Shown piece after piece: positions 16,372 to 32,420 of a stretch of 55,247 bases of DNA. The notes under the pieces are model-generated. The model was given only the letters and a program-made list of their open reading frames with translations. It was not told the DNA's origin and did not search any database. The stretch comes from an uncultured Thermodesulfobacteriota bacterium (GTDB lineage Bacteria; Desulfobacterota; Anaeroferrophillalia; Anaeroferrophillales; Tharpellaceae): assembly GCA_964623985.1 (NCBI GenBank), contig CAZUXG010000003.1, positions 1 to 55,247 of the forward strand. The letters run 5' to 3'. The position numbers and the translations under genes are program-made. The stretch's first letter is position 1, and each line of letters begins with the position of its first letter.

Positions 16372-16777
16372 GTGAACTGAATAAAAACCAAACACTTTAA
16401 GAATTATTATTAGTCAGTATAAACCTTGTAAACGATCACCTGCTAACTACATAATCTCCTGCCATCATTCTTACTTTACCATTCCCTCTTATACCTCTGG
16501 ACTCAAATTGACATGGACAGTTGCAACGAGATAATTTAAACCTAGTTCCCAATTTTAGACCGTCTAAAAGACCGGAATCGAAATTAATTACTTGTTTCAA
16601 TGCCGAATAATTTACGTTATAGTGGTGATCTAAAAAGTGGTGCCCTTCGTTTTGACGACAGTCCTTATTATACTTCAAAAGAGCTGCCGATCTACTCTAT
16701 TTCAATAGCCTACAATTTAACTGCAAGTCTATAGATTGGACCTTTCAAGACAACTGCTCAAGCATTAGGAGGATTCA

Positions 16778-16921
16778 ATGGCAGCCCATCAGTCGCTAGA
16801 AAGAATTTCCTGGATGCCCCACTCTATTGCATCAGGAGTCAAAATTAAACCACTAATTACTCAGAAAGAGCATGGTTTGGATGTGACCTGTATGTTGGTT
16901 GATATTCCGGCTTTTTTGTAA
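16778..16921 (+). CDS. 47-codon ORF with a strong SD, stop overlapping the asnB-like start. It resembles the N-terminal strands of a small cupin. It may be a gene remnant or a leader/micro-protein.
   Basis: Read by hand, below the ORF-track size cut-off. AGGAGGA lies 6 nt before ATG 16778. Translation: MAAHQSLERISWMPHSIASGVKIKPLITQKEHGLDVTCMLVDIPAFL. Its TAA overlaps ATG 16921 as TAATG. Confidence 0.35.
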   Translation: MAAHQSLERISWMPHSIASGVKIKPLITQKEHGLDVTCMLVDIPAFL

Positions 16922-18825
16922 TGTGTGGTGTTCACGGTATAATTTCAGCCCGCATGGAGGCTGGTGAAATTGGGCATAAATTGTCTTTGATGGGCTCAGT
17001 TCAGGCCCATCGCGGGCCGGATGATAAGCGTTGTGAGGTCTATGAGTGTGGTCGGCGGCGGGTTGGTTTTGGCTTTGTCAGACTCGCGATTCTTGATCTT
17101 GAAACCGGCATGCAGCCGGTACGTTCCGTGGTTGATCAGGCGGCTCTGATCTGCAATGGTCAACTCTATAATTACCTTGAGCTTAAGGATGGTTTTGATG
17201 ATGTTGAATGGTTGACGAAAGGCGATGCCGAGGTGGCTTTGCAGATGTTGCGGCGTTTTGGGATTGGGGCCGCACTGCAAGCTTTTAATGGTATGTATGC
17301 CGGGGCTTTTTTTGATCCCGTTAAGCGTCAAGTGGTTCTTTTTCGTGATCGTTTCGGGATCAAACCGCTTTACTATCGTGAACTTGACGGCGACCTTCTG
17401 TTTGCTTCCGAGATCAAGCCTCTGTTGCAGGTTGGAGGTGCTACGAGAATCAGAGACGAGGCCTTTCCGGCGCTTTTCACCTATCGCTATCTGCCGGGTG
17501 AAGAGACCGTTTTTGCTGGTATCAAGCGTCTGCCACCGGGCTCTTTTCTGATCTATGATCTGGTTGCCGGAACCTATAAAGTTGAGTCCTACTGGCAGAA
17601 CAGTTTTCTCCCGGAGTCTGAAAATAGTGAAAAAATCTCTCTTGCCGAAGCCGAGGAGAGGCTTTATGAACTATTTTGTGATGCCGTACGTTTGCGCTTG
17701 CGATCCGATGTTGAGGTTGGCAGCTTCTTAAGCGGTGGTATCGACTCTTGTGCCGTCGCGTCGGCCGCCGCCGAGAAACAACCGGAACTTTCACTGTTTA
17801 CGATCGCTTTTAATGATCCGGCATACAATGAGTTGCCTGATGTGCAAAATTTTCTTGCGGCTGCCGGAGCGCGTTTCAAAAAAGCGAAACACCATGTCGC
17901 TTTTTGTCAAAAGAGCATCTTGGCGGAACTTCCCGAGTTGGTGCGGGCTATCGAAGAACCGATTTTTCTTGGAGCGGTGCTGCCCACCGACCAGGTCTGT
18001 CGGATAGCCAGCCAGCGGGTGAAAACCGTGCTCACCGGTGAGGGGGCTGATGAGATCTTTGCTGGATACCGTAAATTTCTCATTGAAATGGCAGCGCTTG
18101 AATATGTCCAGTCAGATCGTACAGGTCGCCGGGAGCTTGAACTCAGTTATCCGGAGTTGAGAAATTATATCGAGCAGCGGGCTGCTGATCCTTTACAGCG
18201 CTATATCCAGAGTGAGGCTCTTTTCACAGAGCTTGAGTTGTCGCGTCTCTTAGGGTATAAACATGTAGATGTGCCCGATCTGCGAAAACTCAAGGCGGCA
18301 CCGCAACTTGATGGTCGTGAACATCCCTTGAATGCGGCTCTGGCGGTTGAAAGTCGTTGTCGATTACCCGATTACGTTATTTTGAGGCTTGATAAACTGT
18401 CGATGCGTCATTCGCTGGAGACGCGAACTCCGTTTTTAGACTATCGTTTGGCCGAGTTTGCCGCTCGTTTACCGGTTGAATATAAAATAGATCTTTCTCA
18501 GGGGCGGGAGAAGTATATCTGTCGACGTACATTTTCCCGTTACAAACTATTGGACGAACGTAGCGCCTGGCGTCGTAAACAGCCCTTTACGAGTCCTTTG
18601 GCAGCTTGGCTTGCCGATCGTAAGGCTTGGCCGGAGGTTGTCTCTGAGGCTTTGTCGGGTAGTATGATAAAGCGCCATGGGGTGCTTGCTCCCAAAATGG
18701 TTGAAGAGTTGATGGCGCAGGTTACAACCGTCGGGGTTGGTCCTGCGACCCTGGTTTCGGGAGCCGATCGTCTCTTTGCGGTGTTGGTCTTTACTTTGTG
18801 GTATGAGGAGTTTTGTTATGTCTGA
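16921..18825 (+). CDS. Asparagine synthase-family glutamine-hydrolysing amidotransferase (AsnB-like)
   Basis: 634 aa. N-terminal MCG (Cys2 Ntn nucleophile), PP-loop SFLSGGIDS, and the C-terminal AsnB-type domain. Confidence 0.85.
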   Translation: MCGVHGIISARMEAGEIGHKLSLMGSVQAHRGPDDKRCEVYECGRRRVGFGFVRLAILDLETGMQPVRSVVDQAALICNGQLYNYLELKDGFDDVEWLTKGDAEVALQMLRRFGIGAALQAFNGMYAGAFFDPVKRQVVLFRDRFGIKPLYYRELDGDLLFASEIKPLLQVGGATRIRDEAFPALFTYRYLPGEETVFAGIKRLPPGSFLIYDLVAGTYKVESYWQNSFLPESENSEKISLAEAEERLYELFCDAVRLRLRSDVEVGSFLSGGIDSCAVASAAAEKQPELSLFTIAFNDPAYNELPDVQNFLAAAGARFKKAKHHVAFCQKSILAELPELVRAIEEPIFLGAVLPTDQVCRIASQRVKTVLTGEGADEIFAGYRKFLIEMAALEYVQSDRTGRRELELSYPELRNYIEQRAADPLQRYIQSEALFTELELSRLLGYKHVDVPDLRKLKAAPQLDGREHPLNAALAVESRCRLPDYVILRLDKLSMRHSLETRTPFLDYRLAEFAARLPVEYKIDLSQGREKYICRRTFSRYKLLDERSAWRRKQPFTSPLAAWLADRKAWPEVVSEALSGSMIKRHGVLAPKMVEELMAQVTTVGVGPATLVSGADRLFAVLVFTLWYEEFCYV

Positions 18826-19747
18826 AAGTCATCATCCAGCGTTGTTTGATCTTGAAAAAGAGTATACTGAAAAACTTTTTGGAGAGCTTTCCCAGGCTCT
18901 GGTTCCCGGGCCTTTAACTTATGGTTTTGAATACGAGTTTTTGTCGTCTTCTAAGCTTATTCCGGCAACGCTTGAAAAGCTTATGAGAGCTTTGCCGGGT
19001 CTCGGTTTTCAACGCCAGCCAGACGGCAGTTTCAAGGCTCTTGACGGACTTCATGTTACTTTTGAGCCGGGTGGTCAACTGGAGTATGGTTCGCCTCCTC
19101 TTTTTGGCTCTGATGAGGAGGGGTTTGCCAACCTGTTAGATCATATTGCAGTTACCAATCAGGCAATTGAGGAGTCTTTCGGAGTGCGATACCTGGCCGT
19201 TGCTTATCGTTCAGGCCGGGCTTCGGCACCGCTTTGTATAGATAACCGGCGATACCATGATATGCACTCGTTGTTTACCGATAACGGCGGACGTGGTCGT
19301 GAGATGATGAAGGGTACGGCGTCGATCCATCTTCATGTACGGCTGCGCTCCTTAAATGAGATGGTGCCGCTTTTCCTGCTTTTCCAGAAACTTTCAAAGG
19401 ATCCCGATTTTGCCATGTCAGGCCCTCGCCGGGAGATCTGGAATGAGACCGAATCCAGCCGTTGCGGTCTTCCCGTAATTGGCAAAATAGAAAACGAAAT
19501 GATGTTGCTGGCTCACTTGGTTAAATATGCCCTGCAGGCTTTAGATTTGAATCGGCGTATTCCTTTCGCAGAGCTCAAAGAGCCGTCGTTTGCTGATTTC
19601 CTGAGCCATCTTACAACTATCTTTACTGATGTACGGCTTAATCTTAAAGGGCCGACTTTTGAATTGCGGACCATGGATAGTATGCCGGCTAAAGATTTCG
19701 TCACACGCTGGCGGCGTTTTGTTGTCGAAGTAGAAAAAACGCTTTAA
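18818..19747 (+). CDS. Short glutamate--cysteine ligase-like carboxylate-amine ligase (plant/EgtA-type GCL family)
   Basis: Start reset to MSESHHP (ATG 18818, GAGGAG SD, 8-nt ATGTCTGA overlap with the asnB-like stop). Motifs HVTFEPGGQLEYGSPP, MMKGTASIHLHV and FTDVRLNLKGPTFELRTMDS parallel the GCL motifs EPGGQxE, MMRxTxxxQVN and RLKxYLExRxxD. At ~309 aa it is shorter than canonical GCLs. Confidence 0.6.
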   Translation: MSESHHPALFDLEKEYTEKLFGELSQALVPGPLTYGFEYEFLSSSKLIPATLEKLMRALPGLGFQRQPDGSFKALDGLHVTFEPGGQLEYGSPPLFGSDEEGFANLLDHIAVTNQAIEESFGVRYLAVAYRSGRASAPLCIDNRRYHDMHSLFTDNGGRGREMMKGTASIHLHVRLRSLNEMVPLFLLFQKLSKDPDFAMSGPRREIWNETESSRCGLPVIGKIENEMMLLAHLVKYALQALDLNRRIPFAELKEPSFADFLSHLTTIFTDVRLNLKGPTFELRTMDSMPAKDFVTRWRRFVVEVEKTL

Positions 19748-19770
19748 AATTATTTTGTAGGGAGGATAAA

Positions 19771-20025
19771 ATGGTGGAAATTGTTGTCTACAGTACTCAG
19801 GTATGTCCTTACTGTGTTAAAGCCAAGCAGTTACTATCAGCCAAAGGGGCAACTTATAAGGAAATCGATATCAGTCGTGATCCGGTCCTGGTTGAAGAGG
19901 CCCAGATTCGCAGTGGAGGGCGTAAAACCGTACCTCAGATTTTTATCGGCGATTTTCATGTTGGCGGCTGTGATGAGCTTTATGCCCTTGACTCAGAAGG
20001 CAAGCTTGATGAATTGTTGAAGTAG
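19771..20025 (+). CDS. grxC: Glutaredoxin (Grx3-type, CPYC active site)
   Basis: 84 aa with CPYC, TVPQIFI and GGCDEL motifs. Confidence 0.9.
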   Translation: MVEIVVYSTQVCPYCVKAKQLLSAKGATYKEIDISRDPVLVEEAQIRSGGRKTVPQIFIGDFHVGGCDELYALDSEGKLDELLK

Positions 20026-20049: not shown

Positions 20050-21852
20050 TCATGCCGGATTAGAATAGAGGGGCGGAAGCCCCTTTTTTTGTTTATGGGC
20101 TAGTTTACCCGGCGCTTTTTTCTCTAGATTAGGCAATATCGTTTGCCAGAAATAGTTGCCGTCCCAGGTTCGGCCGTCCGGGCTGTAGAGGGTTTCTTCC
20201 AGGTTTGCAAAGGCGTTACCCAAGGTTGGGTTTTCCAGGCGGGCAGCAATTGATTTAAGGTTTTGTGGTGGGTTTTGCGGCCAATTGGCCGCGCCCCAGC
20301 CGAGGATGGCCTGATGTGCATCCCGGGGATTGTTGTCTAAGCAGGCTTGTTTAATAGTTTCTTGATTGATTGTCTGTTTCTTTTTCGGTGTCAGATCTCT
20401 TTCTTTAAGTTCTGCAATCTGCCGGCGCAGGGTTTTACGCCAGAGCAGAACGGTTATAATCCAGGCGATCAGCAGCATCGCGCTGATCGTTTTCCAGAGT
20501 TGGGTGGTATCGGCGTCCACGATTTTTGTGGTTAAAGTATCTGAGGTTGGGGACGGGTTTTTAGCACTGTCTGGTTCCGCTTTGCGGGGTTTTTTTTCAA
20601 TCTTTATATTGCTTCTTTGTGGTTGGTCTGCGAATCCATTGTCAGCCTTGATAACCTTGATCACGCGCGCCGGCAGCACAGCTTTTTGTTGTTTATTGTT
20701 AACCACGTCCCACCAGTCAATCGTGACTTCCGGTAGGGTGAATAGGCCCTCTTGTGAAGGGATAAAGGCCATTGCCTGGCGTTTGACGGCGTGCAACAGC
20801 GCCCCATCGACCTCGGTTTGGTACTCGGCTTGATCGAGATAGATTTTACCGTCGTCAGGGGCATCAGGTTTTATTTCCGGCAGTTGTTCAGCCGTTAGAC
20901 CTAAGGCTTCGATCTGGATTGTCCGGGTCAGGGGCTCGCCGACTTTAAGCACTTTCTCTTCGTCCAGATTTTCCATGATTGCTATTTTTCGCGCCGGTAG
21001 CCAGACCTTGCCTTTAAATTCATCAGGTATTTGAGTCAGTGAGATTGTTAGCTCCTGACTCCGGGCCCGGAGACGCTGGCCGCGACCGGAAAAGCGGTCA
21101 AAAAAGGGATCGGCCGGAAAACGGCGGTTGCCGCCGTTCGTAGTGATCGCCTGAAAAAGTAGTGGCGGAATTGTGATTTCGCGGCCATCTTCAGCGATGA
21201 TGGCATATTTTCGTTCAATTACCTGGTAGGTAAAATCGTTTTTACGGCTCTGATAGCGTCGATCGTCACCGAGTTTAATGATGGTGGCATGTTTTAAGGC
21301 CGGCTCTTCGAGTGAGGCCTCGGTGAGGCGTAATTGATTCTTGATAAAGAGTTTGACGTTGATTGTGATTTGAGCCTGGAGGTATGCCGGGGTATCCATC
21401 TCAGGAGTTACTTCAATGAAGACCTCGGGAAGGGTTTTGGAGGTTTTCGAGGTTTTCGGAATTGGGGTGCTAACGGTTAGGGTCAGGGCCGCGGTTTTTT
21501 CTACCCCGACGTTAAAGGAAGGAATAGTGAAACTTCCGGTTTGTTTCGCTTCCAGCTTAATAGTCCAGGTTTTGGTAGCTTTGCTGGTGCCGTTAATAAT
21601 CTGGAAATTACTGTTGACCGAGCGGTCAACAATGGAAAAATCCTTTTCAAGATTACTGGTGTCAAGGTTTGCAATGCTATTAAGAGCGCCATCGGCTTCG
21701 ATAATGAGTTTAACAGTTTCATCAATGGTGATTGTCTGCCGGTCGAGTCGGGCTCTGACCGCCGCATCGCAAGTTAGAGGCCACTGGCCGACGACAATTA
21801 TAGCGATGATGGCAAAAAAGAGCAGTTGTGAAATTACGGTTTGGCGTTTCAT
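20050..21852 (-). CDS. batD: BatD-family protein (oxygen-tolerance/Bat operon)
   Basis: Start reset to MKRQTVISQLLFF (ATG 21852, 4 nt after the upstream stop). It has a signal peptide, a large beta-rich periplasmic region, one late TM helix and a C-terminal cytoplasmic tail. It is the last gene of the MoxR-VWA operon. Confidence 0.7.
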   Translation of the reverse strand: MKRQTVISQLLFFAIIAIIVVGQWPLTCDAAVRARLDRQTITIDETVKLIIEADGALNSIANLDTSNLEKDFSIVDRSVNSNFQIINGTSKATKTWTIKLEAKQTGSFTIPSFNVGVEKTAALTLTVSTPIPKTSKTSKTLPEVFIEVTPEMDTPAYLQAQITINVKLFIKNQLRLTEASLEEPALKHATIIKLGDDRRYQSRKNDFTYQVIERKYAIIAEDGREITIPPLLFQAITTNGGNRRFPADPFFDRFSGRGQRLRARSQELTISLTQIPDEFKGKVWLPARKIAIMENLDEEKVLKVGEPLTRTIQIEALGLTAEQLPEIKPDAPDDGKIYLDQAEYQTEVDGALLHAVKRQAMAFIPSQEGLFTLPEVTIDWWDVVNNKQQKAVLPARVIKVIKADNGFADQPQRSNIKIEKKPRKAEPDSAKNPSPTSDTLTTKIVDADTTQLWKTISAMLLIAWIITVLLWRKTLRRQIAELKERDLTPKKKQTINQETIKQACLDNNPRDAHQAILGWGAANWPQNPPQNLKSIAARLENPTLGNAFANLEETLYSPDGRTWDGNYFWQTILPNLEKKAPGKLAHKQKKGLPPLYSNPA

Positions 21853-21856
21853 TGGT

Positions 21857-23722
21857 TTACCACCCTTTATGGCCTTGGGAGCGATTTTGTCGGCTGCGGT
21901 ACTGGTAGAGGAACTTTTTTTCCAAGAGGCCCTGTGGGTCATCCGGGACCCGACGAAGCCACTGTTCTAAGGCCTGTTGTTTGGCAGCCATCGGTTTCTC
22001 GTCGTTATCTTCTTTTGCGGCCCCACCTTCCGGTCGTTTTTTTTCTTTTGCGTCTCTGTTTCCAGTGGAGTCTCTGGATTCTTCGAGCGAATCCACAGGA
22101 TTATTGGATTCTAACCCCTGAGTTTTTTCGGGTTCTGGTTCTTGCGGTGGAGGATTGTTTGGAGAAGATTGCTCCTGATTTTGTGTCTGATTATCCTGAC
22201 ACTTTTCACTTTGAGAGCTTTGTTGGTTTTCTTTCGGTTCTGGTTGTTCGGAAGAGTCTTGAGACTGAGACGAATTTTGTTTTGACTCTTGGTTTTCCGG
22301 GTTCTCTTTTTCCGAGTCGTTGTTTTGTGATCTGTCGTTCTGTGATTTTTCCTGTTGTTGTAGAAGTTTTTCGACCAGTTTGCGGTTGAAACGGGCATCT
22401 TCCATAGTCGGGTCGGTTTGCAGAGCCTGGTCGTAGGCCGCGATTGCCTTCTCCAGTTCTCCTGAGTGAGCCAGAGCATTACCTCGGTTATAGTGGGCCC
22501 GGCGAGATGGGAGAGTTTCAAGGACGGTTGCCGCCTCTTTGAAGTTACCAGCGCGGTAGTGGGCCGCCGCCCGCCAGTCGGGATCTTTGGTCAGTTGGGC
22601 GGCTTCGTTAAAGTTCTCTTTAGCGAAGGCTTTCACTGCTTGTTGGGTCGGGCGCTGCCAGAGATTATGCCAGAGATTTTCTAAGTTTTGGGCTGAGGCG
22701 GTTTCGGCGTTGACAAAAATAGCTATAAGGATAACCAGCAGCCAACCTTTACGGAAGCATATTGCCGCTAGCAGGAGCAGAGGAATCAGGAGCCAGGGGC
22801 CGCGATCGTGCCATTGATCACCGGTAAGCTCACTTTTACTTTTGTTTTCAGGAAAAAGGGTATCCGGTTGGTTTAAACGTTGAAAAGAACTATCCTGATC
22901 CTCGATTTCAAAATAGCTGCCGCCCCCGGATTCAGCAACCTCACGCAACTTGTCAAAGGCGGGAACCGGAACCACAATCTGACCCTGCAGGTCTTTTAAA
23001 TAGCGGCCTTCCGCTAAAGGAACCGGGGCTCCTTCTTTTGTGCCGACGGCGATAACATCAATTCGATGACCCGCACTTTTCAGTTTACGGGCCGCTGTGA
23101 TTGTCGATTGGTCGGCATCATCGGCCAGAAGAATTATCTGTCCTTGATTAATGGCTGCTCGTTGGAGTAGCTCGCCGGCTTTTTCAAGGCCCCGGTCGGC
23201 CCGGCTGCCCTGGATCGGAACCGTGTTTGGGTTGAGGCCCGGCAGGAGGTTAAGCAGGGTGGCGCGGTCATCGGTCAGGGGTGTGACAATAAAACTGTCG
23301 CCTGCAAAGACCACCAGTCCCTGTTCGATTCCAACTCCGGCTTTAATCAGGTCAATGGCCTTGTAGTGGGCTCGGTTCAGGCGCGAGGGAGCGATGTCTG
23401 GAGCTAGCATCGAGAGCGACAGATCGAGAACTATGACGCGGCCGTTGGTGGCTCGAAAAAGGGGTTGAGGCAAGCGCTCCCAAGTCGGGCCGGCCAGCGC
23501 CAGGGTGGCGAGAGACAACATTATCAAGAGGCCGCTGTAGATTCTTTTCTGGGCAATTTTTGCTTCACCTACCAGGAGATGTTCAAGCAGGTGGTTGTCG
23601 CAGACTTTATGCCACTGGTTTTTGCCGGGATCACGCCTTTTCAGACCGGCCAGCAGAACCAGGCCGGCCGGCAGGGCCAGCAGCCACCAGGGACGCAAAA
23701 AATGGAAATCATGAATATTCAT
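21857..23722 (-). CDS. batB: BatB-BatC-like fusion: TM + von Willebrand factor A domain + TM + TPR repeats + acidic low-complexity tail
   Basis: 621 aa. The N-terminus FHFLRPWWLLALP is typical of BatA/BatB. It has a VWA core (VIVLDLSLSM … ILLADDAD), TPR-like AHYRAGNFKEA / YNRGNALAHSGELEKAIAAY, and a Q/S/E/N/P-rich stretch. Confidence 0.75.
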   Translation of the reverse strand: MNIHDFHFLRPWWLLALPAGLVLLAGLKRRDPGKNQWHKVCDNHLLEHLLVGEAKIAQKRIYSGLLIMLSLATLALAGPTWERLPQPLFRATNGRVIVLDLSLSMLAPDIAPSRLNRAHYKAIDLIKAGVGIEQGLVVFAGDSFIVTPLTDDRATLLNLLPGLNPNTVPIQGSRADRGLEKAGELLQRAAINQGQIILLADDADQSTITAARKLKSAGHRIDVIAVGTKEGAPVPLAEGRYLKDLQGQIVVPVPAFDKLREVAESGGGSYFEIEDQDSSFQRLNQPDTLFPENKSKSELTGDQWHDRGPWLLIPLLLLAAICFRKGWLLVILIAIFVNAETASAQNLENLWHNLWQRPTQQAVKAFAKENFNEAAQLTKDPDWRAAAHYRAGNFKEAATVLETLPSRRAHYNRGNALAHSGELEKAIAAYDQALQTDPTMEDARFNRKLVEKLLQQQEKSQNDRSQNNDSEKENPENQESKQNSSQSQDSSEQPEPKENQQSSQSEKCQDNQTQNQEQSSPNNPPPQEPEPEKTQGLESNNPVDSLEESRDSTGNRDAKEKKRPEGGAAKEDNDEKPMAAKQQALEQWLRRVPDDPQGLLEKKFLYQYRSRQNRSQGHKGW

Positions 23723-24692
23723 AACGTTTGATTAAGAGCAGTAAAAAAGTGAGCAGAAGAGCGCCACTCAAGGGCCAGTAGAAGAATTCTTGGATGGGTC
23801 GCAGGGCATGGTTTTCACTCAATACCGGTTCCAGAGTGTCAAGCAGGGCGTAGATCTTTTCCAGATCTTTTTTTTCACGGGCTCGAAAATAGCGGCCGCC
23901 GGTAAGTTCGGCAATCTTTTGCAAGGTTTTTTCGTCGAGGTCAGCCGAGGGATTGACGAGCCGGTTGCCAAAAAAACTGTTGACTACCATGCGGTCAGCT
24001 CCGACCCCGATGGTGTAGATCGAAAGCTTACCCTCTTTGGCCAATTCGGCCGCTTTTAAAGGTTCGATGGTGCCGGCTGTGTTTGCTCCATCAGTCAAGA
24101 GAATCAGGACTTTTCTTTCTCCCGGTCGTTGACGCAAGCGTTTGACCGCCAGTCCCAAAGCGTCACCGATCGCGGTTTTTTCGCCGGCAATCCCGATCAG
24201 GGATTCCTGCAAGAGTTGGTTTACAGTTTTACGATCCAGCGAGAGTGGTGCCTGTAGGTAAGCCTGACTGCCAAAGAGGATCAGGCCGACCCGATCGCCT
24301 TGCCGGCGGTTGATAAAATCACCAGCCACCTTTTTGATCATGGTTAAACGATCAACCGGTTGATCGTTGATTTCCATATCCTTGGCTTGCATACTGCCGG
24401 AGATGTCGACGGCCAGCAGTAGATCACGGCCGCTGATAGGTGTGTTTAGAGGCTCACCTATCCATTGTGGACGGGCCGCAGCACAGACCAGTAATAGCCA
24501 TGCGATAACGGCTAGAAACCGGAGCCCAGCGAAACCTTTTTCAGTTGAGGTCTTACGGAACTCTTCAAGTTCCTGAAAAAAAGGGATCTTTAAAGCCATG
24601 CCGGAAGTAGAGCGAGCCCGGGGCAGCAACAGATAGACCAGTAATGGGAGTGGCAAGGCGACGAACAGCTGAATCCAGACAAATTCTATCAT
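23709..24692 (-). CDS. batA: BatA-like VWA domain membrane protein
   Basis: Start reset to MIEFVWIQLF (ATGA overlap with the upstream stop). It has an N-terminal TM helix, the VWA MIDAS motif DISGSM, and a C-terminal TM helix. Confidence 0.8.
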   Translation of the reverse strand: MIEFVWIQLFVALPLPLLVYLLLPRARSTSGMALKIPFFQELEEFRKTSTEKGFAGLRFLAVIAWLLLVCAAARPQWIGEPLNTPISGRDLLLAVDISGSMQAKDMEINDQPVDRLTMIKKVAGDFINRRQGDRVGLILFGSQAYLQAPLSLDRKTVNQLLQESLIGIAGEKTAIGDALGLAVKRLRQRPGERKVLILLTDGANTAGTIEPLKAAELAKEGKLSIYTIGVGADRMVVNSFFGNRLVNPSADLDEKTLQKIAELTGGRYFRAREKKDLEKIYALLDTLEPVLSENHALRPIQEFFYWPLSGALLLTFLLLLIKRYEYS

Positions 24693-25207
24693 GGTCGGAC
24701 CCGGGTTTTTTTCTTCTGTCCGGAGAACCACTCTTTGACAACTCGGCCGAGGGCCACAAGGTCAGTGTCATTGGTCGGAGAGTAGGCATCTTCTATTAGA
24801 GGCTGAAGTTCTTGGTCGGTAAACTGTGTGTCTCTACCTTTGCTTTTTCCAGAGATTTCTTGTTTGAGAAATTCAAGCCACGGCTGGCCGCAGAGCCCGG
24901 CAATCGTTTGCTGTGGAAAAAAAACGATGCAAAAGCGTCTTGTAAGGGCTGAAAGATCTTGCAGCACTTGGCGGCATTGCTCGGGATCTTCGCTCTTCAA
25001 ATCGAGTTGTGCGAGCTCCAGCAAGGCAAGTTTGATGGGCTGGTGATGCAACTGTCGCTGTCGCCACTTATAAAGTCCGAAACTGATTAGCGCTAGCAGT
25101 AAAAAGGTTATAAACCACCAGCCCGGAGCTGGAGGCCACCAACCCGGAGCTGGGGGCAGATGAATATCCTTAAGTGCGGCCAGAGGATTTGAGTTTATTG
25201 GATTCAT
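24689..25207 (-). CDS. DUF4381-like small membrane protein of MoxR/Bat operons
   Basis: 172 aa. It has PPAPGWWPPAPGWW followed by a single TM helix, and sits between the DUF58 and BatA genes. There are 4-nt overlaps on both sides. Confidence 0.65.
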   Translation of the reverse strand: MNPINSNPLAALKDIHLPPAPGWWPPAPGWWFITFLLLALISFGLYKWRQRQLHHQPIKLALLELAQLDLKSEDPEQCRQVLQDLSALTRRFCIVFFPQQTIAGLCGQPWLEFLKQEISGKSKGRDTQFTDQELQPLIEDAYSPTNDTDLVALGRVVKEWFSGQKKKTRVRP

Positions 25208-26163
25208 GGCCGATGCACATTTTGTTTAAGGCTTAAGCCGCGGCGCATGATACCGGCGATATCATCACCGGAGACGACTTTGAGATAGGGGATTTTCAGG
25301 TTGCCGGCGATGCGCCCGAGGTTTTCCCGGCGTGCATTAAACTTTTCACTGTAAGCGTTGCGTACGATAGCGGCTTTGGTGTTGAGCCGGGCTTGATCAT
25401 GGCCGTTGCTTATATTGTAAAGGCCCGGGGGTGGTGCCTTGAGCTCCAGGGGGTCGATAATTTGGCAGAGGATAAGGTCGTTGTGGCGGCGCAGGCGGTT
25501 CAGGTTGCGTTCGAGATTCTGGTCATGGTTATAAAAATCACTGATCAGGAAAATCCGGCTGCCGGGACGGATGGTGCGAATTCCGTGATGGAGAACCTGC
25601 TCTAAAGAAGGTTCGGAACTTTCGGTTGTGGGTGTTTGGGTTGCCTTAACGAGGGCATGGATCAGTGCCAGTACCCCTTTACGACCGGCCTGCGGCCTTA
25701 AATCGAATTTTTTCTGTGGGGTCAGAAGAATACCTCCGATACGGTCACTGTTAAAGGCCGCTGTCCAAGCCACTGTTGCAGCGAGCCGGGCAGCAATTAC
25801 CGATTTGAAGGCCTCTTTGGTGCCGAAATAGAGGGAGGGGCTAAAATCGACCAGGGTCAGGACTGGGCGGTCACGCTCCTCAGCATAGAGTTTGGTATGG
25901 GTTTTGCCGCTGCGGGCCGTAACCCGCCAGTCGATACTGCGGATATCATCGCCCGGGGTGTAGATCCGGGATTCAGCGTAGTCCATGCCGCGTCCGCGAA
26001 ACTTGGAGAGCGTATTGCCGGCCATAATGGAGTAAGCCCGTCGATTGTTTTTGCCGATCAGGGAACGGGCTGTATGGCGCAGATCGAGAAGCTCTTCAGT
26101 TGTGCAGGTAATCCCGTTGACGGATGAAGGTTGCGGTTTTCTAAAAATCTTTGCCAGACGCAT
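25204..26163 (-). CDS. DUF58 family protein (MoxR-associated, VWA-like fold)
   Basis: Start reset to MRLAKIF (ATG 26163, after the MoxR stop at 26171). The motif YAESRIYTPGDDIRSIDWRVTAR is the DUF58 signature. Confidence 0.8.
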   Translation of the reverse strand: MRLAKIFRKPQPSSVNGITCTTEELLDLRHTARSLIGKNNRRAYSIMAGNTLSKFRGRGMDYAESRIYTPGDDIRSIDWRVTARSGKTHTKLYAEERDRPVLTLVDFSPSLYFGTKEAFKSVIAARLAATVAWTAAFNSDRIGGILLTPQKKFDLRPQAGRKGVLALIHALVKATQTPTTESSEPSLEQVLHHGIRTIRPGSRIFLISDFYNHDQNLERNLNRLRRHNDLILCQIIDPLELKAPPPGLYNISNGHDQARLNTKAAIVRNAYSEKFNARRENLGRIAGNLKIPYLKVVSGDDIAGIMRRGLSLKQNVHRP

Positions 26164-26170
26164 ATTGGGG

Positions 26171-27184
26171 CTAGGGCACCGGGATATAGCGCAGTAATTC
26201 GTCGATTGCCTCTTCACTTTTGATCCCTTCGGCTTCGGCTTCAAAGGTCAAAAGTAGACGATGGCGCAGGATGTCATGGATAATGGCCTGGATGTTTTCC
26301 GGGGTCACATACTTTTTACCCTGAAGCCATGCATGGGCCCGGGCACAACGGTCCAGAGCAATAGAGGCCCGCGGGCTGGCGCCGTATTCGATCCAGCGCC
26401 CCATCTTCTCGTCGCAGGCCTGCGGGTTACGGGTGGCGAGAATAAGTTGGACGATATACTCTTTAAGCGGATCTGCCATATACAGATCAAGAATTTCGCG
26501 GCGCGCTCGGGTGATTGCTTCGGGCGTGAGAATTGCCGATTGTGAAGGTTTTTCTTCCAGTTCACTCAAAGCTTCACGCCGGGCCAGTTCAAGAATTTTT
26601 TTTTCGCTGTGATAGTCTGGATAATCGACATTGATCTGCATGAGAAAACGGTCAAGCTGGGCTTCCGGCAGGGGGTAGGTGCCCTCCTGTTCGATCGGGT
26701 TCTGGGTTGCCATGACCATAAAAAGATCGGGCAGGTAATGGGTTTTACGGCCGACACTGATCTGTCTTTCCGACATCGCTTCCAATAGAGCCGACTGAAC
26801 CTTGGCCGGGGCCCGATTGATCTCGTCGGCTAAGACAATATTGTGAAAGAGTGGCCCGGGCTGAAAGCGAAAAGAGTCATTGCTACGTTGGTAGATTTCG
26901 GTGCCGGTAAGGTCAGCCGGCAGGAGGTCGGGAGTAAACTGCAGGCGTTGAAAATCACCCTCGATACAATCGGCCAGGGCTTTTACGGCTCTGGTTTTGG
27001 CCAGTCCCGGAGCTCCTTCAACCAGCAGGTGACCATCGGCTAGTAAAGCGACCAAGAGCCGTTCAACTAGAACTTGCTGACCGATGATCTCGGTTTCCAT
27101 ACGTTCTTTGGCCTGTTGGAAAGCCTCCCGGGGTTCATTACCTGGCGGCGCGATGTTTTGCAGTGAGGTGGTTGTCGGTTCCAT
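26171..27184 (-). CDS. MoxR-family AAA+ ATPase
   Basis: Walker A GAPGLAKT and Walker B VLADEINRA. Start set to ATG 27184, because the track's GTG 27217 lies inside the pspA terminator stem. Confidence 0.9.
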   Translation of the reverse strand: MEPTTTSLQNIAPPGNEPREAFQQAKERMETEIIGQQVLVERLLVALLADGHLLVEGAPGLAKTRAVKALADCIEGDFQRLQFTPDLLPADLTGTEIYQRSNDSFRFQPGPLFHNIVLADEINRAPAKVQSALLEAMSERQISVGRKTHYLPDLFMVMATQNPIEQEGTYPLPEAQLDRFLMQINVDYPDYHSEKKILELARREALSELEEKPSQSAILTPEAITRARREILDLYMADPLKEYIVQLILATRNPQACDEKMGRWIEYGASPRASIALDRCARAHAWLQGKKYVTPENIQAIIHDILRHRLLLTFEAEAEGIKSEEAIDELLRYIPVP

Positions 27185-27202
27185 AAGAGGGTTCTTTCGG
27201 AG

Positions 27203-27248
27203 TAAAAACAAAAGCACGAAATTGGCATAAACCCAATTTCGTGCTTTT
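27203..27248 (-). terminator. Rho-independent terminator after the pspA-like gene
   Basis: On the minus strand: AAAGCACGAAATTGG / CCAATTTCGTGCTTT, a 15-bp stem with a 7-nt loop, followed by TTTTGTTTTT. Confidence 0.7.
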
Positions 27249-27262
27249 GGGGATTATTAAGA

Positions 27263-27943
27263 TCAGTTGTCGAGCTTGGCTTTGAGAGCGGCGAGTTTAT
27301 CGTTGACCGCCTGGTTGGTGTGGTTTTCACCCAAACCGGCAAACTCATTTTCGAGGCTGTCACCGCTGTCAGCCGCCATTTCGGCGGCTGCGTCGGCTTC
27401 ATGGGATGAACGTTCGGCTTTAGCCCGCATTCGCGCCATGAGATCATCGGCAGTATGTTTATTAGACATCTTGGCCTTGGCTTGGTAGATCTGTTTCTTG
27501 ACTTCCGAGGCTTTACTCTGGGCGATGATGAAATCGCGGTTGCGCTTAAACTCGGCCAGCTCATCCTCAATGCGACGGATATCCTGTTTGAGACTTTCGA
27601 TCTGGCCGCGCTGTTCCTTGCAGCGCGGTTCCATCTCCAAGGCCTTCTTTTCATGTTCTCCGGCCCGGGCTAAAGCTTTCACCGCGAGATCTTCGCGGTT
27701 GGCCTTAAGTGCGGCTTCAGCTTTGGCCTCCCAGTTACTCTGCTCGAGTTTATCTTTATCGAGAATCGCCTTGGCCTGTTTCTCGGTGGCGATACATGAC
27801 ATGACTGCCTGTTTGGCCTCTTTGATCTGTTTTTCTTTGTCGCGGATGGCCTGATCCAACATCAGTTCAGGGGTTTCCATTTTGTCGATGGCCTTATTGA
27901 CTCCGGCTTGGCCGACCTTGAATATTCTACTGAAGATGCTCAT
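27263..27943 (-). CDS. PspA/IM30-family protein (YjfJ-like paralog)
   Basis: 226 aa. It has the MSIFSRIFKV… amphipathic N-terminus and then a continuous coiled coil (…LDQAIRDKEKQIKEAKQAV…), the PspA/IM30 architecture. AAGGAGA SD. Confidence 0.85.
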   Translation of the reverse strand: MSIFSRIFKVGQAGVNKAIDKMETPELMLDQAIRDKEKQIKEAKQAVMSCIATEKQAKAILDKDKLEQSNWEAKAEAALKANREDLAVKALARAGEHEKKALEMEPRCKEQRGQIESLKQDIRRIEDELAEFKRNRDFIIAQSKASEVKKQIYQAKAKMSNKHTADDLMARMRAKAERSSHEADAAAEMAADSGDSLENEFAGLGENHTNQAVNDKLAALKAKLDN

Positions 27944-27982
27944 ATATTGGTTCTCCTTAAAAATGTTAAGCGAATGAATTTG

Positions 27983-28127
27983 TTAACTATTTGGGTACCC
28001 GTACCGTTTTCAAATTGTCTCGGTGCGGGGCTTTGCTCCAGACCGGGCTGAAAGCCCGAGCCGCGTGGCGTCGTGTCCCCTTCGAAGTGGGCGAAGCAAA
28101 GTTCGCCGTTATCCGCTGTAACTTAAC
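27983..28127. repeat. Intergenic structured repeat, copy 2 of 3 (~145 nt, expanded central hairpin)
   Basis: Shares blocks with copies at 189-298 and 31372-31497: TAACTATTTGG, AAATTGTCTCGGTGCGGGG, GTCCCCTTCGAAGTGGGCGAAGCAAAGTTCGCCGTTATCCGCTGTAACTTAACT. It contains the hairpin GGCGAA-GCAAAG-TTCGCC. Confidence 0.9.
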
Positions 28128-28533
28128 TCAGATAATCTGCCAGCAGGGTTTCGGCTCGATCAACGGCCAGTTCCAAGGTTGTGAAAACGCAGAGTAGTTC
28201 ATTGCTGTCGAGATTTTCGGCTTCGCGGCTCTCAACCAGAACTAGACGAGGGTCGTCGGGATTGGCCCGGTTGAGACCAAAGGCGACCGGCAGGATTTCA
28301 GTGTTGAGATCAAGCAGGTCATGGTAGAGTTTCTCAGTGGCGACAGAGCTGATATTGCCCAGATCAATTTCGAAGTAGAGATGATCGTCTTCCAGGTTAA
28401 TGAAGACCGGTAATTCACCGTCGCGTTCGACCCGGTAGATGGTTTCTTCAAGTGCCTCGACAGTAAATTCGTTAAATTCGAGAAAACTGACAAGATCTTC
28501 TTTCAACGAGCTGGTCACGATTACCTGTTTCAT
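28123..28533 (-). CDS. YjfI-like (DUF2170-type) small acidic cytosolic protein, chaperone-like
   Basis: 136 aa. The pattern …GELPVFINLEDDHLYFEIDL…LLDLNTEILPVAFGL…LVLVESREAENLDSNELL… parallels YjfI-family proteins that pair with YjfJ-type PspA. This assignment is from memory of the family, not from a search. Confidence 0.5.
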   Translation of the reverse strand: MKQVIVTSSLKEDLVSFLEFNEFTVEALEETIYRVERDGELPVFINLEDDHLYFEIDLGNISSVATEKLYHDLLDLNTEILPVAFGLNRANPDDPRLVLVESREAENLDSNELLCVFTTLELAVDRAETLLADYLS

Positions 28534-28608
28534 ACGACATCCTTTTTACCGTTTTAATCAGGTTGACGTTATTGATTTTTTTTAAGGATATTTACCTTAT
28601 TGGATGAG

Positions 28609-28637
28609 AATATAGGACTCTTTTCAGGTGTGGTCAA
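28609..28637 (-). promoter_or_regulatory. Candidate sigma70 promoter for the yjfI-like / pspA-like pair
   Basis: Minus strand reads TTGACC - 17 nt - TATATT, about 70 nt upstream of ATG 28533. Confidence 0.45.
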
Positions 28638-28677
28638 GAGGTATGTACCTTTATTTGAAAATTCTAAGATCTCTCTT

Positions 28678-29784: not shown

Positions 29785-29799
29785 CGATTTTTGTTGTCT

Positions 29800-31343: not shown

Positions 31344-31371
31344 GACTTAATCCTTATTAGCTTAGATTTTG

Positions 31372-31497
31372 GGTAACTATTTAGGGCAACTATTCAGGTT
31401 TTGTCCACAAATTGTCTCGATGCGGGGATCGACCTTTAGTTCTGTCCCCCTCGAAGTGGGCGAAGCAAAGTTCGCCGCTATCCGCTGTAACTTAACT
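31372..31497. repeat. Intergenic structured repeat, copy 3 of 3 (~126 nt)
   Basis: GTAACTATTTAGG … AAATTGTCTCGATGCGGGG … CCTTTAGTTCTGTCCCC … CGAAGTGGGCGAAGCAAAGTTCGCCGCTATCCGCTGTAACTTAACT. It is in the same orientation as the other copies and lies between two minus-strand genes. Confidence 0.9.
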
Positions 31498-31500
31498 CTT

Positions 31501-32355: not shown

Positions 32356-32420
32356 GTTTAAACCCCATTTTGTTTGCAGTGGTCAGTGTGCAGGTTTTTA
32401 CTGTCGACTGCTTACTGATT

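What the first reader, a model, noticed from the sequence alone, without database searches (positions are those of the whole stretch)
16778..20025. Translationally coupled AsnB-type amidotransferase + short glutamate-cysteine-ligase-like enzyme + glutaredoxin: candidate pathway for an amidated gamma-glutamyl-cysteine-type thiol
What the sequence shows:
- A 634-aa asparagine-synthase-family enzyme keeps both the Cys2 glutaminase nucleophile and the SGGIDS PP-loop.
- Its stop overlaps by 8 nt (ATGTCTGA) the start of a ~309-aa protein carrying glutamate-cysteine-ligase motifs (FEPGGQLEYGSPP, MMKGTASIHLHV, RLNLKGPTFELRTMDS). That protein is clearly shorter than canonical GCLs.
- A CPYC glutaredoxin follows 23 nt later.
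- No glutathione synthetase (gshB) gene is present in the cassette.

What is inferred:
- A carboxylate-amine ligase plus an ATP- and glutamine-dependent carboxylate amidase plus a thiol-disulfide oxidoreductase is the enzyme set expected for making and using a small amidated thiol, for example a gamma-Glu-Cys amide or an isoglutaminyl-cysteine.
- As far as I know, the amidation step for known amidated thiols such as glutathione amide has no assigned gene.
- The product identity is therefore pure inference.
Basis: partly seen in the sequence, partly recalled or inferred. Interest (0 to 1): 0.65.

Follow-up and report, generated by a model that had tools for sequence, protein, structure and literature searches.

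The report
Conserved amidotransferase, mini-GCL and glutaredoxin operon
Three tightly packed genes (an asparagine-synthetase-like amidotransferase, an unusually small glutamate-cysteine-ligase-like enzyme and a glutaredoxin) form an uncharacterised operon conserved across dozens of uncultured sulfate-reducer relatives, and it most likely makes and uses a small thiol that is not glutathione, possibly an amidated gamma-glutamyl-cysteine.

Summary
- an AsnB-like gene (16921-18825, with Cys2 and SGGIDS);
- an 8-nt ATGTCTGA overlap with a 309-aa GCS2-type ligase (18818-19747);
- a CPYC glutaredoxin 23 nt further on (19771-20025).

The gene order is not an accident. In 80 GTDB species that carry the ligase (all MAGs, mostly labelled Desulfobacterota; 41-80% identity), the AsnB-like gene lies directly upstream in 78 of 79 evaluable loci. 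The glutaredoxin lies within 400 nt downstream in 66 of 78. No other gene travels with them, so there is no gshB and no reductase.

The ligase is a distinct, compact clade. It keeps all catalytic motifs and folds like plant GCL (pLDDT 93), but it lacks about 120 C-terminal residues.

The amidotransferase keeps both active sites and fits no specific AsnB subfamily.

The linked glutaredoxins keep the CPYC, TVP and GG-x-D-D/E motifs. They never have the basic residues found at the E. coli Grx3 Lys8 and Arg40 positions.

Best reading: the operon synthesises and uses a gamma-Glu-Cys-derived, probably amidated, thiol. The product chemistry remains inferred. I found no publication on this cassette.

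The parts
16508..16535 (+). Sigma-70-like promoter candidate (TTGACA-16-GATAAT) in the 400-nt gap after the ClC channel gene
   Evidence: Consensus scan, 11 of 12 matches. This is a pattern match only and was not tested.
16778..16921 (+). 47-aa remnant of a cupin gene. It is first in the transcription unit, and its TAA stop overlaps the AsnB-like ATG. It is not a conserved part of the system.
   Evidence: Translation. No Pfam hit. The full 114-aa cupin sits at the same place only in the closest relative, L008. There is a 201-nt in-frame deletion between TCCGGC repeats.
16921..18825 (+). AsnB-type glutamine amidotransferase/adenylating synthetase (634 aa), with the Cys2 nucleophile and the SGGIDS PP-loop
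   Evidence: Across 70 orthologues C2, R54, N79-G80, D102, S271/G273-I-D-S276, E374, D484, R489 and K553 are invariant. It lies directly upstream of the ligase in 78 of 79 species loci.
18818..19747 (+). Minimal GCS2-type carboxylate-amine ligase (309 aa), a short sister clade of plant-type GCL/EgtA, translationally coupled to the amidotransferase (8-nt overlap)
19771..20025 (+). Grx3-like dithiol (CPYC) glutaredoxin (84 aa), with Thr9 and Val41 in place of E. coli Grx3 Lys8 and Arg40
   Evidence: It lies within 400 nt downstream of the ligase in 66 of 78 evaluable species loci.
20067..20086 (+). Terminator-like G+C hairpin with a T-run after the glutaredoxin gene. It lies inside the 3' end of the convergent batD gene.
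   Evidence: Pattern scan, not tested.

Best explanation
The three genes are one functional unit that makes and uses a low-molecular-weight thiol different from glutathione.

Step 1 (inferred from family). The 309-aa ligase, a stripped-down plant/EgtA-type glutamate-cysteine ligase, phosphorylates the gamma-carboxylate of glutamate with ATP and joins it to the amino group of cysteine, giving gamma-Glu-Cys.

Step 2 (inferred from gene coupling and family chemistry). The AsnB-type enzyme hydrolyses glutamine at its Cys2 site and adenylates a free carboxylate of the dipeptide at its PP-loop site. The most likely target is the cysteine carboxylate. The enzyme then replaces AMP with the tunnelled ammonia, giving gamma-Glu-Cys-amide.

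Step 3 (inferred). The Grx3-like glutaredoxin uses this thiol as its reductant. Its gamma-glutamyl/cysteine docking motifs (TVP, GG-x-D-D/E) are kept. The two basic positions present in glutathione-using relatives are neutral in every linked glutaredoxin.

Shown here: the genes, their intact catalytic motifs, the fold, the distinct clade, the strict and co-evolving linkage, the lack of gshB nearby, and the glutaredoxin signature.

Not shown: any substrate, any product, or expression.
For: - Linkage. The AsnB-like gene is upstream in 78 of 79 evaluable GTDB species loci. The Grx is within 400 nt downstream in 66 of 78. Intergenic distances are mostly -29 to +50 nt. Identity to the window is correlated between the three proteins (r = 0.90-0.97).
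- No fourth gene. No other gene family occurs in more than 18 of 81 loci.
- Ligase. It has invariant E38/E40, E83/Q87/E89, H173, R204, R215, H264, R273, E282/R284/D287. The AF2 model has pLDDT 93. The best fold match is plant GCL 2GWC at E = 1e-13 and TM 0.72, followed by YbdK and E. coli GshA. The nearest non-family sequences are plant-type GCL/EgtA-like proteins.
- Amidotransferase. Both active sites are invariant in 70 orthologues. Only the generic TIGR01536 cut-off is passed. The specific AsnB, NAGGN and PEP-CTERM models fail.
- Glutaredoxin. Among 68 linked Grx sequences, none has K/R at the EcGrx3 Lys8 position (41 T, 24 S) and none has a basic residue at the Arg40 position (V/I/M/A). 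CPYC, TVP and GG-x-D-D/E are kept. The five nearest solved Grx chains (Brucella twice, Bartonella, E. coli Grx3, Synechocystis) all have Arg at the second position, and four have K/R at the first.
- Role of the Lys. It is described as the glutathione activator site, and a natural Ala variant is nearly inactive with GSH (PMC5382279).
- Precedent. Loss of a carboxylate-binding Arg in glutathione amide reductase is already used as a proxy for an amidated thiol (PMC8877833).
- Paralogue. A ligase copy without the amidotransferase sits beside cydB, rubrerythrin and a thioredoxin-reductase-like gene, which is a redox-stress setting.
Against: - No biochemical or expression data exist. No RNA run holds the locus, and all carriers seen are uncultured MAGs.
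- The ligase is only about 20% identical to characterised GCLs. It scores far below the GCL and EgtA equivalog cut-offs (55 and 40 bits against 371 and 463). It also lacks the C-terminal third, so cysteine as the amine substrate is not established.
- The glutaredoxin signature would fit plain gamma-Glu-Cys equally well. One glutathione-using relative (Synechocystis) also lacks a basic residue at the Lys8 position.
- Ten of 78 evaluable loci have no adjacent Grx.
- No disulfide reductase is linked.
- I could not test whether the AsnB-like protein is also the organism's only asparagine synthetase.
Confidence: 0.45

Rival explanations
1. The ligase makes plain gamma-Glu-Cys, which is the final thiol as in haloarchaea and some lactic acid bacteria, and the glutaredoxin uses it. 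The AsnB-like enzyme is an ordinary asparagine synthetase, or serves another pathway, and only shares the operon.
For: The protein passes the generic asparagine synthase model TIGR01536 (359.8 bits against 267.1). The general catalytic residues shared with human ASNS are present. The glutaredoxin signature is explained just as well by a thiol that simply lacks glycine.
Against: A housekeeping gene would not be expected directly upstream of this ligase in 78 of 79 species, often with overlapping stop and start codons, and diverging in step with it. It fails the E. coli-type AsnB equivalog (232 bits against 499). In the segment aligned to human ASNS 'ETYDITTVRAS' it reads 'EEPIFLGAVLP'. From memory, that segment holds aspartate-binding Thr/Arg residues.
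Confidence: 0.15
2. The pair makes a non-thiol amidated gamma-glutamyl compound or dipeptide amide, for example an osmolyte analogous to N-acetylglutaminylglutamine amide. The glutaredoxin is a regulator or a passenger.
For: A ligase plus an AsnB-type amidotransferase is exactly the logic of the NAGGN pathway, and the NAGGN amidotransferase model gives a full-length though sub-threshold match (268 bits). The ligase's amine substrate is unproven. Many carriers are marine-sediment MAGs. Ten of 78 evaluable loci lack the Grx.
Against: The nearest relatives of the ligase are all Glu-Cys ligase types (plant GCL, EgtA). A glutaredoxin is the only other conserved partner (66 of 78 loci), and its thiol-docking motifs are intact. 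No acetyltransferase or ATP-grasp partner is present.
Confidence: 0.15
3. Same pathway, different chemistry. The amide is placed on the alpha-carboxylate of the glutamyl residue (isoglutaminyl-cysteine), or the amidotransferase acts before the ligase on one of its substrates.
For: Nothing in the sequence fixes which carboxylate is adenylated. AsnB-type enzymes amidate many kinds of carboxylates, as shown by the lasso cyclase, NAGGN and PEP-CTERM models listed.
Against: The linked glutaredoxins keep the GG-x-D-D/E helix end and the acidic residue assigned to the glutathione scaffold site (PMC5382279). The changed positions are the basic residues at the other end. From memory, those residues contact the C-terminal carboxylate of glutathione. 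This is weak evidence.
Confidence: 0.12
4. The enzymes modify a macromolecule or a ribosomal peptide, such as peptidoglycan amidation or a RiPP encoded by the short upstream ORF, rather than making a free small molecule.
For: AsnB-type enzymes include lasso-peptide cyclases and, from memory, cell-wall amidating enzymes. A 47-aa ORF is translationally coupled upstream.
Against: The short ORF is a deletion remnant of a 114-aa cupin gene and occurs only in the window and its closest relative. Lasso and macrolactam cyclase models are far below cut-off. No protease, transporter or precursor gene is conserved nearby.
Confidence: 0.04

Closest known systems
Plant/alphaproteobacterial-type glutamate-cysteine ligase (e.g. 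Brassica juncea GCL, PDB 2GWC) and the ergothioneine enzyme EgtA
   Same: They share the GS/GCL fold: it is the best Foldseek match (E = 1e-13, TM 0.72). They share the motifs ExE, EPGGQxE, RxxIW, HLTTIFxxVR and E-x-R-x-x-D. These proteins are also the nearest sequence neighbours.
   Different: Identity is about 20%. The protein has 309 aa against 380-520. It lacks about 120 C-terminal residues and about 28 internal ones. It scores far below both equivalog cut-offs. There is a gap from above 250 bits within the clade to about 96 bits for the next proteins. It is always paired with an AsnB-type enzyme and never, in the loci seen, with gshB or egtBCDE.
NAGGN pathway (dipeptide-forming ligase Ngg plus AsnB-type amidotransferase AsnO; NCBIfam TIGR03104)
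   Same: An ATP-dependent ligase gene is paired with a glutamine-dependent AsnB-type amidotransferase gene, and the expected end product is an amidated small peptide. The match to TIGR03104 covers the full length.
   Different: The amidotransferase is below the TIGR03104 cut-off (268 bits against 570). The ligase has a GCS2 fold, not (from memory) a GNAT/ATP-grasp fusion. A glutaredoxin is the third partner, which points to a thiol rather than an osmolyte.
Glutathione amide of purple sulfur bacteria (Chromatiaceae)
   Same: It is an amidated gamma-glutamyl-cysteine-based thiol in anaerobic sulfur-cycle bacteria. Its partner redox enzyme has lost a carboxylate-binding Arg (PMC8877833), which parallels the neutral Lys8/Arg40 positions here.
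   Different: Glutathione amide contains glycine and needs gshB. No gshB is linked here. The carriers are labelled Desulfobacterota, not Gammaproteobacteria. I found no gene assigned to its amidation.
E. coli glutaredoxin 3 (TIGR02181)
   Same: The score is above the equivalog cut-off (114.5 against 90). CPYC, TVP and GG-x-D-D/E are present, and the length is the same.
   Different: Thr/Ser replaces Lys8 and Val/Ile/Met/Ala replaces Arg40 in essentially all 68 cassette-linked copies.
YbdK-type carboxylate-amine ligases (PDB 1R8G)
   Same: They are small GCS2-family enzymes, and YbdK is the second-best fold match.
   Different: The match is much weaker (E = 1e-5, TM about 0.5, 12-14% identity). 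No YbdK-type NCBIfam model hits the window protein.

Membership tests
GCS2 / glutamate-cysteine ligase superfamily (Pfam PF04107) | Profile score above the curated cut-off | tested here: met
   27.6 bits against a cut-off of 21, but only residues 80-176 are matched.
GCS2 / glutamate-cysteine ligase superfamily (Pfam PF04107) | Metal- and substrate-binding acidic/basic motifs of the GS/GCL fold (ExE, ExxxQxE, H, ExR) | tested here: met
   E38, E40, E83, Q87, E89, H173, E282 and R284 are invariant in 20 homologues and aligned with the plant GCL motifs.
GCS2 / glutamate-cysteine ligase superfamily (Pfam PF04107) | GS/GCL three-dimensional fold | tested here: met
   AF2 pLDDT 93.1. Foldseek top hits are 2GWC, 1R8G and 1V4G.
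Plant-type GCL (TIGR01436) / EgtA (TIGR03444) equivalogs | Full-length match above the equivalog cut-off | tested here: not met
   40.3 bits against 463 and 55.2 bits against 371. The matches are partial.
Plant-type GCL (TIGR01436) / EgtA (TIGR03444) equivalogs | Glu + Cys ligase activity | not testable with these tools
   Needs an enzyme assay.
Asparagine synthase B family (class II amidotransferase + PP-loop synthetase) | N-terminal Cys nucleophile, glutamine-binding residues and SGGxDS PP-loop | tested here: met
   C2, R54, N79-G80, D102 and S271/G273-I-D-S276 are invariant in 70 orthologues. TIGR01536 scores 359.8 against 267.1.
E. coli-type AsnB (NF006949), housekeeping asparagine synthetase | Equivalog cut-off | tested here: not met
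   232 bits against 499.
NAGGN amidotransferase (TIGR03104) | Equivalog cut-off and linkage to the Ngg ligase | tested here: not met
   268 bits against 570. No Ngg-like gene is conserved nearby.
XrtA/PEP-CTERM amidotransferase (TIGR03108) | Cut-off | tested here: not met
   329 bits against 817.
Lasso-peptide / macrolactam cyclases (NF033535, NF033561) | Cut-off and an adjacent precursor peptide | tested here: not met
   158 bits against 525 and 54 bits against 300. The upstream short ORF is a cupin remnant and is not conserved.
Glutaredoxin 3 (TIGR02181) | Equivalog cut-off, CPYC, TVP and GG-x-D-D motifs | tested here: met
   114.5 bits against 90. The motifs are conserved in 67-68 of 68 linked copies.
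Glutaredoxin 3 (TIGR02181) | Basic residue three positions before the active-site Cys (glutathione activator site) and Arg40-type residue in the following helix | tested here: not met
   Thr9 and Val41 in the window. None of 68 copies is basic at either position. The role of the Lys is from PMC5382279.
Canonical glutathione pathway (gshA + gshB) | A glutathione synthetase gene | tested here: inconclusive
   None in the window and none conserved within 9 kb in 81 loci. The rest of the genomes could not be searched.
Ergothioneine cluster (egtABCDE) | EgtB and EgtD next to the ligase | tested here: not met
   No such conserved neighbours.

The most novel reading that the evidence does not exclude
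A large group of uncultured, mostly marine-sediment and hydrothermal Desulfobacterota use a previously undescribed low-molecular-weight thiol, gamma-glutamyl-cysteine amide, as a redox buffer and possibly as a sulfane-sulfur carrier. It would be made by a minimal 309-aa glutamate-cysteine ligase plus a dedicated AsnB-type amidotransferase, and read by a co-evolved glutaredoxin whose glutathione-contact residues have been re-tuned. This would also give the first gene-level model for how amidated glutathione-type thiols are made.
Probability: 0.4. Interest if true: 0.8.

Novelty: new variant of a known kind. Interest (0 to 1): 0.68.

Why it matters
- **Open question.** From memory, which small thiol anaerobic sulfate reducers and their relatives use instead of glutathione is largely unsettled. 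The one genome paper I read on a related group states that glutathione synthesis enzymes had not been identified in Geobacteraceae (PMC3543383).
- **Testable candidate.** This cassette offers a three-gene candidate present in about 400 species-level genomes.
- **If the product is an amidated gamma-Glu-Cys,** it would add a member to the short list of bacterial redox-buffer thiols. It would also define the smallest known working GCL scaffold and show how an AsnB-type enzyme is recruited to neutralise a thiol's charge.
- **Annotation marker.** The neutral residues at the two usually basic positions of the glutaredoxin could be used to flag such systems in genome annotation, in the way the Arg21Glu change in glutathione amide reductase already is.

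Tried and rejected
- **RiPP idea.** The 47-aa ORF at 16778 looked like a possible precursor peptide. It is a cupin gene with a 201-nt in-frame deletion, and it is found only here and in the closest relative.
- **Riboswitch or leader RNA.** An Rfam scan of the whole window found only one tRNA.
- **Extra pathway genes.** Clustering about 990 neighbouring ORFs from 81 loci gave no further family in more than 18 loci. The 2.8-kb insert between the ligase and the Grx in L019 is a hybrid histidine kinase gene; L018 has a gap of the same size that I did not inspect.
- **Expression evidence.** No RNA run holds the locus, and only one marine DNA metagenome run does.
- **Literature.** Ten full-text searches found nothing on this cassette, on a natural gamma-Glu-Cys amide, or on a gene for glutathione-amide amidation. 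I could not find a paper in the library that states the exact Grx3 Lys8/Arg40 contacts with glutathione, so that detail rests on memory plus PMC5382279.
- **Cultured carriers.** All named members in ten sequence clusters are MAGs.
- **Whole-genome check.** I could not test whether carrier genomes lack gshA/gshB or hold another asparagine synthetase, because only one genome-collection scan is allowed per session and it was used for the ligase.
- **Regulatory disulfide.** I considered a disulfide between the conserved Cys140 and Cys216 of the ligase, with the Grx as its regulator.

Full report
**1. What is in the window**

The region holds four head-to-tail ORFs on the + strand.

- **16778-16921:** a 47-aa ORF preceded by AGGAGG. 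Its TAA stop overlaps the next ATG.
- **16921-18825:** a 634-aa protein that starts MCGVHG and carries SGGIDS. Pfam gives GATase_7/GATase_6 plus Asn_synthase at 1.5e-68.
- **18818-19747:** a 309-aa protein whose ATG overlaps the preceding TGA in ATGTCTGA. It matches Pfam GCS2 just above the cut-off, and matches EgtA and plant-type GCL partially.
- **19771-20025:** an 84-aa CPYC glutaredoxin, 23 nt downstream. It scores above the Grx3 equivalog cut-off.

Signals around the cluster are pattern matches only. A promoter-like TTGACA-16-GATAAT lies at 16508-16535, and a hairpin with a T-run lies at 20067-20086.

The flanking genes are housekeeping genes:
- upstream: glmU, glmS and a ClC channel;
- downstream, convergent: a batD/batB/batA/DUF4381/DUF58/MoxR operon.

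The rest of the window holds Mrp antiporter genes, PspA, LPS genes, gltX, queH, trkAH, nadE and others. It contains no glutathione synthetase, reductase or transferase.

**2. The ligase is a real enzyme and a distinct clade**

- **Homologues.** A word-indexed search found 409 homologues, the best 120 nearly all 300-320 aa. Where named, they are called 'hypothetical' or 'glutamate-cysteine ligase family', and they come from Deltaproteobacteria/Desulfobacterales MAGs.
- **Conserved residues.** In an alignment of 20 members down to 41% identity, the following are invariant:
  - first strand: E38-x-E40;
  - E83-P-G-G-Q87-x-E89;
  - E162-M-M-K-G-T-A-S-I...H173;
  - R204, W208, R215-C216;
  - H264-x-T266...F269-T270...R273-x-N275-x-K277;
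  - E282-x-R284-T-x-D287-S.
- **Alignment to plant GCL.** A profile built from this alignment aligns positions 28-288 with residues 39-327 of plant GCL (449 aa), motif by motif. Examples are EPGGQ(I/F)E, RxHIWxDTDxxR, HLTTIF(T/P)(D/E)VRL and E(L/M)R. The family therefore lacks the last 120 or so residues of plant GCL and about 28 internal ones.
- **Fold.** AlphaFold2 on the alignment gives a confident model (pLDDT 93.1, pTM 0.90). Its best PDB matches are:

| PDB entry | Protein | E-value |
|---|---|---|
| 2GWC | plant GCL (query TM 0.72) | 1e-13 |
| 1R8G | YbdK | 1e-5 |
| 1V4G, 2D32 | E. coli GshA | about 6e-4 |
| several | glutamine synthetases and PafA | weaker |

- **Separation from other families.** A filter-free HMM search of 1.84 billion representative proteins shows about 20 full-length clusters scoring 256-436 bits. 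The next full-length proteins score about 96 bits and are 380-470 aa. NCBIfam identifies those as plant-type GCL/EgtA-like, one of them fused to EgtD.

So the protein is a compact sister clade of enzymes whose characterised members all join Glu to Cys. It does not meet either equivalog threshold.

**3. The three genes travel together**

The best 80 were fetched with flanks. All are MAGs. Most are labelled Desulfobacterota lineages, and the closest is Candidatus Tharpella at 80%.

- **Amidotransferase.** tblastn places an AsnB-like gene (50-92% identical to the window's) immediately upstream in 78 loci. The two exceptions are L007, a contig that starts inside the ligase gene, and L080, a second ligase copy in a MAG that also has a complete cassette (L033).
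- **Glutaredoxin.** A Grx gene lies 17-306 nt downstream in 66 of 78 evaluable loci. In two more loci it lies about 2.8 kb downstream; in the one I inspected (L019) a hybrid histidine kinase gene sits in between. It is absent in ten loci.
- **Other sources.** Independent look-ups of three homologues in other assemblies show the same pair in three different genomic contexts.
- **Spacing.** The estimated gap between the amidotransferase stop and the ligase start lies mostly between -29 and +50 nt, with overlaps in about a quarter of loci (start choice is heuristic).
- **Co-divergence.** Identities of the three proteins to the window copy are correlated across loci (r = 0.97, 0.90 and 0.94).
- **No fourth gene.** Clustering about 990 neighbouring ORFs within 9 kb found no further family in more than 18 of 81 loci. 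There is no ATP-grasp glutathione synthetase, no flavoprotein disulfide reductase and no transporter as a rule. An MFS gene precedes the pair in one lineage.

**4. The amidotransferase**

- **Active sites.** Seventy full-length orthologues (625-639 aa) keep 187 invariant positions. These include M1-C2-G3, R54, N79-G80, D102, the PP-loop S271/G273-I-D-S276, E374 in TGEGADE, D484, R489 and K553. Both the glutaminase and the adenylating half-sites are therefore under selection, which argues for ammonia transfer rather than a cyclase-type reaction.
- **Subfamily placement.**

| NCBIfam model | Score (bits) | Cut-off (bits) | Passes |
|---|---|---|---|
| TIGR01536, generic 'asn_synth_AEB' | 359.8 | 267.1 | yes |
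| XrtA/PEP-CTERM amidotransferase | 329 | 817 | no |
| NAGGN amidotransferase | 268 | 570 | no |
| E. coli-type AsnB | 232 | 499 | no |
| Lasso cyclase | 158 | 525 | no |

- **Solved relatives.** The nearest are human ASNS and the hydroxyamidotransferase of PDB entry 7YLZ, at about 131-135 bits.
- **Possible substrate clue.** In the alignment to human ASNS, the segment 'ETYDITTVRAS' corresponds to 'EEPIFLGAVLP'. From memory, the Thr-Thr-x-Arg of that segment contributes to aspartate binding in E. coli AsnB. Also from memory, the 'EEP' type of segment is common to the long AsnB-like group, some of whose members are reported to make asparagine. This is compatible with a different carboxylate substrate but does not prove one.

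**5. The glutaredoxin carries a consistent signature**

I aligned 68 cassette-linked Grx sequences to E. coli Grx3.

- **Kept:** C11-P-Y-C14 (68, 67, 62+6F, 68), T51-V52-P53 (67, 66, 67), G63-G64 (67 each), D66 (67) and D/E67 (66).
- **Changed at Lys8:** the position is Thr (41) or Ser (24) and never Lys or Arg.
- **Changed at Arg40:** the position is Val, Ile, Met or Ala and never basic.

For comparison, the five nearest solved Grx chains are two Brucella entries, Bartonella, E. coli Grx3 and Synechocystis ssr2061. All have Arg at the second position. Four have Lys or Arg at the first, and Synechocystis has Trp.

Begas et al. describe the Lys as conserved in many glutaredoxins. They identify it as the glutathione activator site and note that yeast Grx8, with Ala there, is barely active. 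They assign TVP, the preceding Arg and the GG-x-(D/E) helix end to the glutathione scaffold site (PMC5382279). From memory, Lys8 and Arg40 contact the glycine carboxylate in the Grx3-glutathione complex. I could not find a held paper stating this.

The pattern parallels the Arg21-to-Glu change in glutathione amide reductase, which is used as a proxy for glutathione amide (PMC8877833).

My reading is that the linked Grx still docks a gamma-glutamyl-cysteine-like moiety, but that its partner thiol does not present glutathione's C-terminal carboxylate. That fits a thiol without glycine, amidated or not. It does not on its own prove amidation.

**6. Mechanism proposed**

- **Shown:** gene content, intact catalytic motifs, fold, clade separation, strict linkage, the Grx signature, and the absence of a linked gshB.
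- **Inferred from family chemistry:**
  1. The ligase forms gamma-glutamyl phosphate and couples it to cysteine.
  2. The amidotransferase adenylates a remaining carboxylate of the dipeptide and replaces AMP with ammonia released from glutamine at Cys2.
  3. The Grx uses the resulting thiol.
- **Position of the amide.** I consider the cysteine carboxylate the more likely site, because the Grx has changed at the end that, from memory, faces the C-terminus of glutathione. This is weak evidence.
- **Supporting context.** The ligase paralogue without an amidotransferase (L080) sits next to cydB, rubrerythrin and a thioredoxin-reductase-like gene, an oxidative-stress setting.
- **Confidence.** I put about 0.45 on the amidated gamma-Glu-Cys thiol. 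I put roughly 0.7 on the weaker statement that the cassette makes and uses a non-glutathione thiol.

**7. Rivals**

- **Plain gamma-Glu-Cys plus an unrelated asparagine synthetase (0.15).** The near-universal, often overlapping and co-diverging linkage argues against it.
- **A non-thiol amidated gamma-glutamyl compound, NAGGN-like (0.15).** The Glu-Cys-ligase ancestry of the ligase and the conserved Grx argue against it.
- **Same pathway with the amide on the other carboxylate, or the steps in reverse order (0.12).**
- **Modification of a macromolecule or a RiPP (0.04).** The only candidate precursor is a cupin remnant, and no accessory genes are conserved.

**8. Novelty**

Ten full-text searches found no description of this cassette, of a natural gamma-Glu-Cys amide, or of a gene for glutathione-amide amidation. 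Database names are 'hypothetical protein' or 'glutamate-cysteine ligase (family protein)', and all carriers seen are uncultured.

The components belong to known superfamilies, and the ligase-plus-amidotransferase logic has a precedent in NAGGN. I therefore rate it a new variant of a known kind: an uncharacterised thiol pathway built from a new minimal GCL clade, a dedicated AsnB-type clade and a re-tuned Grx.

**9. Limits**

- There are no expression data and no biochemistry.
- The intergenic-distance and start-codon estimates are heuristic.
- The Grx control set is small (five solved chains).
- Some residue roles are recalled from memory rather than checked here.

Noticed in passing
window 16778-16921; L008 333-677: The first ORF of the reported region is a cupin gene that has lost 201 nt in frame between two TCCGGC repeats. 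That removes residues 46-112, including the His-rich metal motif. The 47-aa remnant is still translationally coupled to the amidotransferase gene. The intact 114-aa cupin is present only in the closest relative.
   Followed up: yes
window 18737-19747: The mechanical ORF call extends the ligase to a TTG at 18737 (336 aa), deep inside the amidotransferase gene. Homologue N-termini (M-x-E-S/N...) support the ATG at 18818 (309 aa).
   Followed up: yes
L080 4935-11593 (same MAG as L033): A second copy of the short ligase (330 aa), without an amidotransferase or Grx, lies between a cytochrome bd subunit II-like gene, a phosphotransferase-like gene, a rubrerythrin-like gene and a thioredoxin-reductase-like flavoprotein gene. 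These identifications were made by eye from the translations and not run against Pfam.
   Followed up: partly
L019 5003-7765 (L018 has a similar 2.8-kb gap, not inspected): In L019 a 920-aa hybrid sensor kinase/response-regulator gene sits between the ligase and the glutaredoxin genes, and the cassette is otherwise intact. L018 has the same spacing between the two genes.
   Followed up: partly
18 related loci, e.g. L059 7043-7492 (minus strand): In one sub-lineage a roughly 149-aa protein with two CxxC pairs is divergently transcribed about 150-600 nt upstream of the amidotransferase gene. Its function was not examined.
   Followed up: no
L003/L004 4840-6078: In one lineage an MFS transporter gene (Pfam MFS_1, Acatn) sits directly upstream of the amidotransferase gene and may be an exporter or importer linked to the pathway. 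It is not seen in the other loci.
   Followed up: no
window 27263-34079 (minus strand): This is a run of PspA/IM30, a K+ channel-like protein, a 219-aa unknown, a double DUF350 membrane protein, a 284-aa unknown and a 552-aa protein with a spermidine-synthase domain. From memory it resembles the E. coli yjf-type stress/polyamine clusters.
   Followed up: no
window 20050-27217 (minus strand): A complete BatD / vWA-TPR / vWA / DUF4381 / DUF58 / MoxR-AAA operon converges on the glutaredoxin gene. A BatD-like gene also follows the cassette in at least 9 relatives.
   Followed up: partly
window 1-54000: GC skew is positive in every 2-kb bin of the window, with no sign change, so no replication origin or terminus lies inside it.
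   Followed up: no
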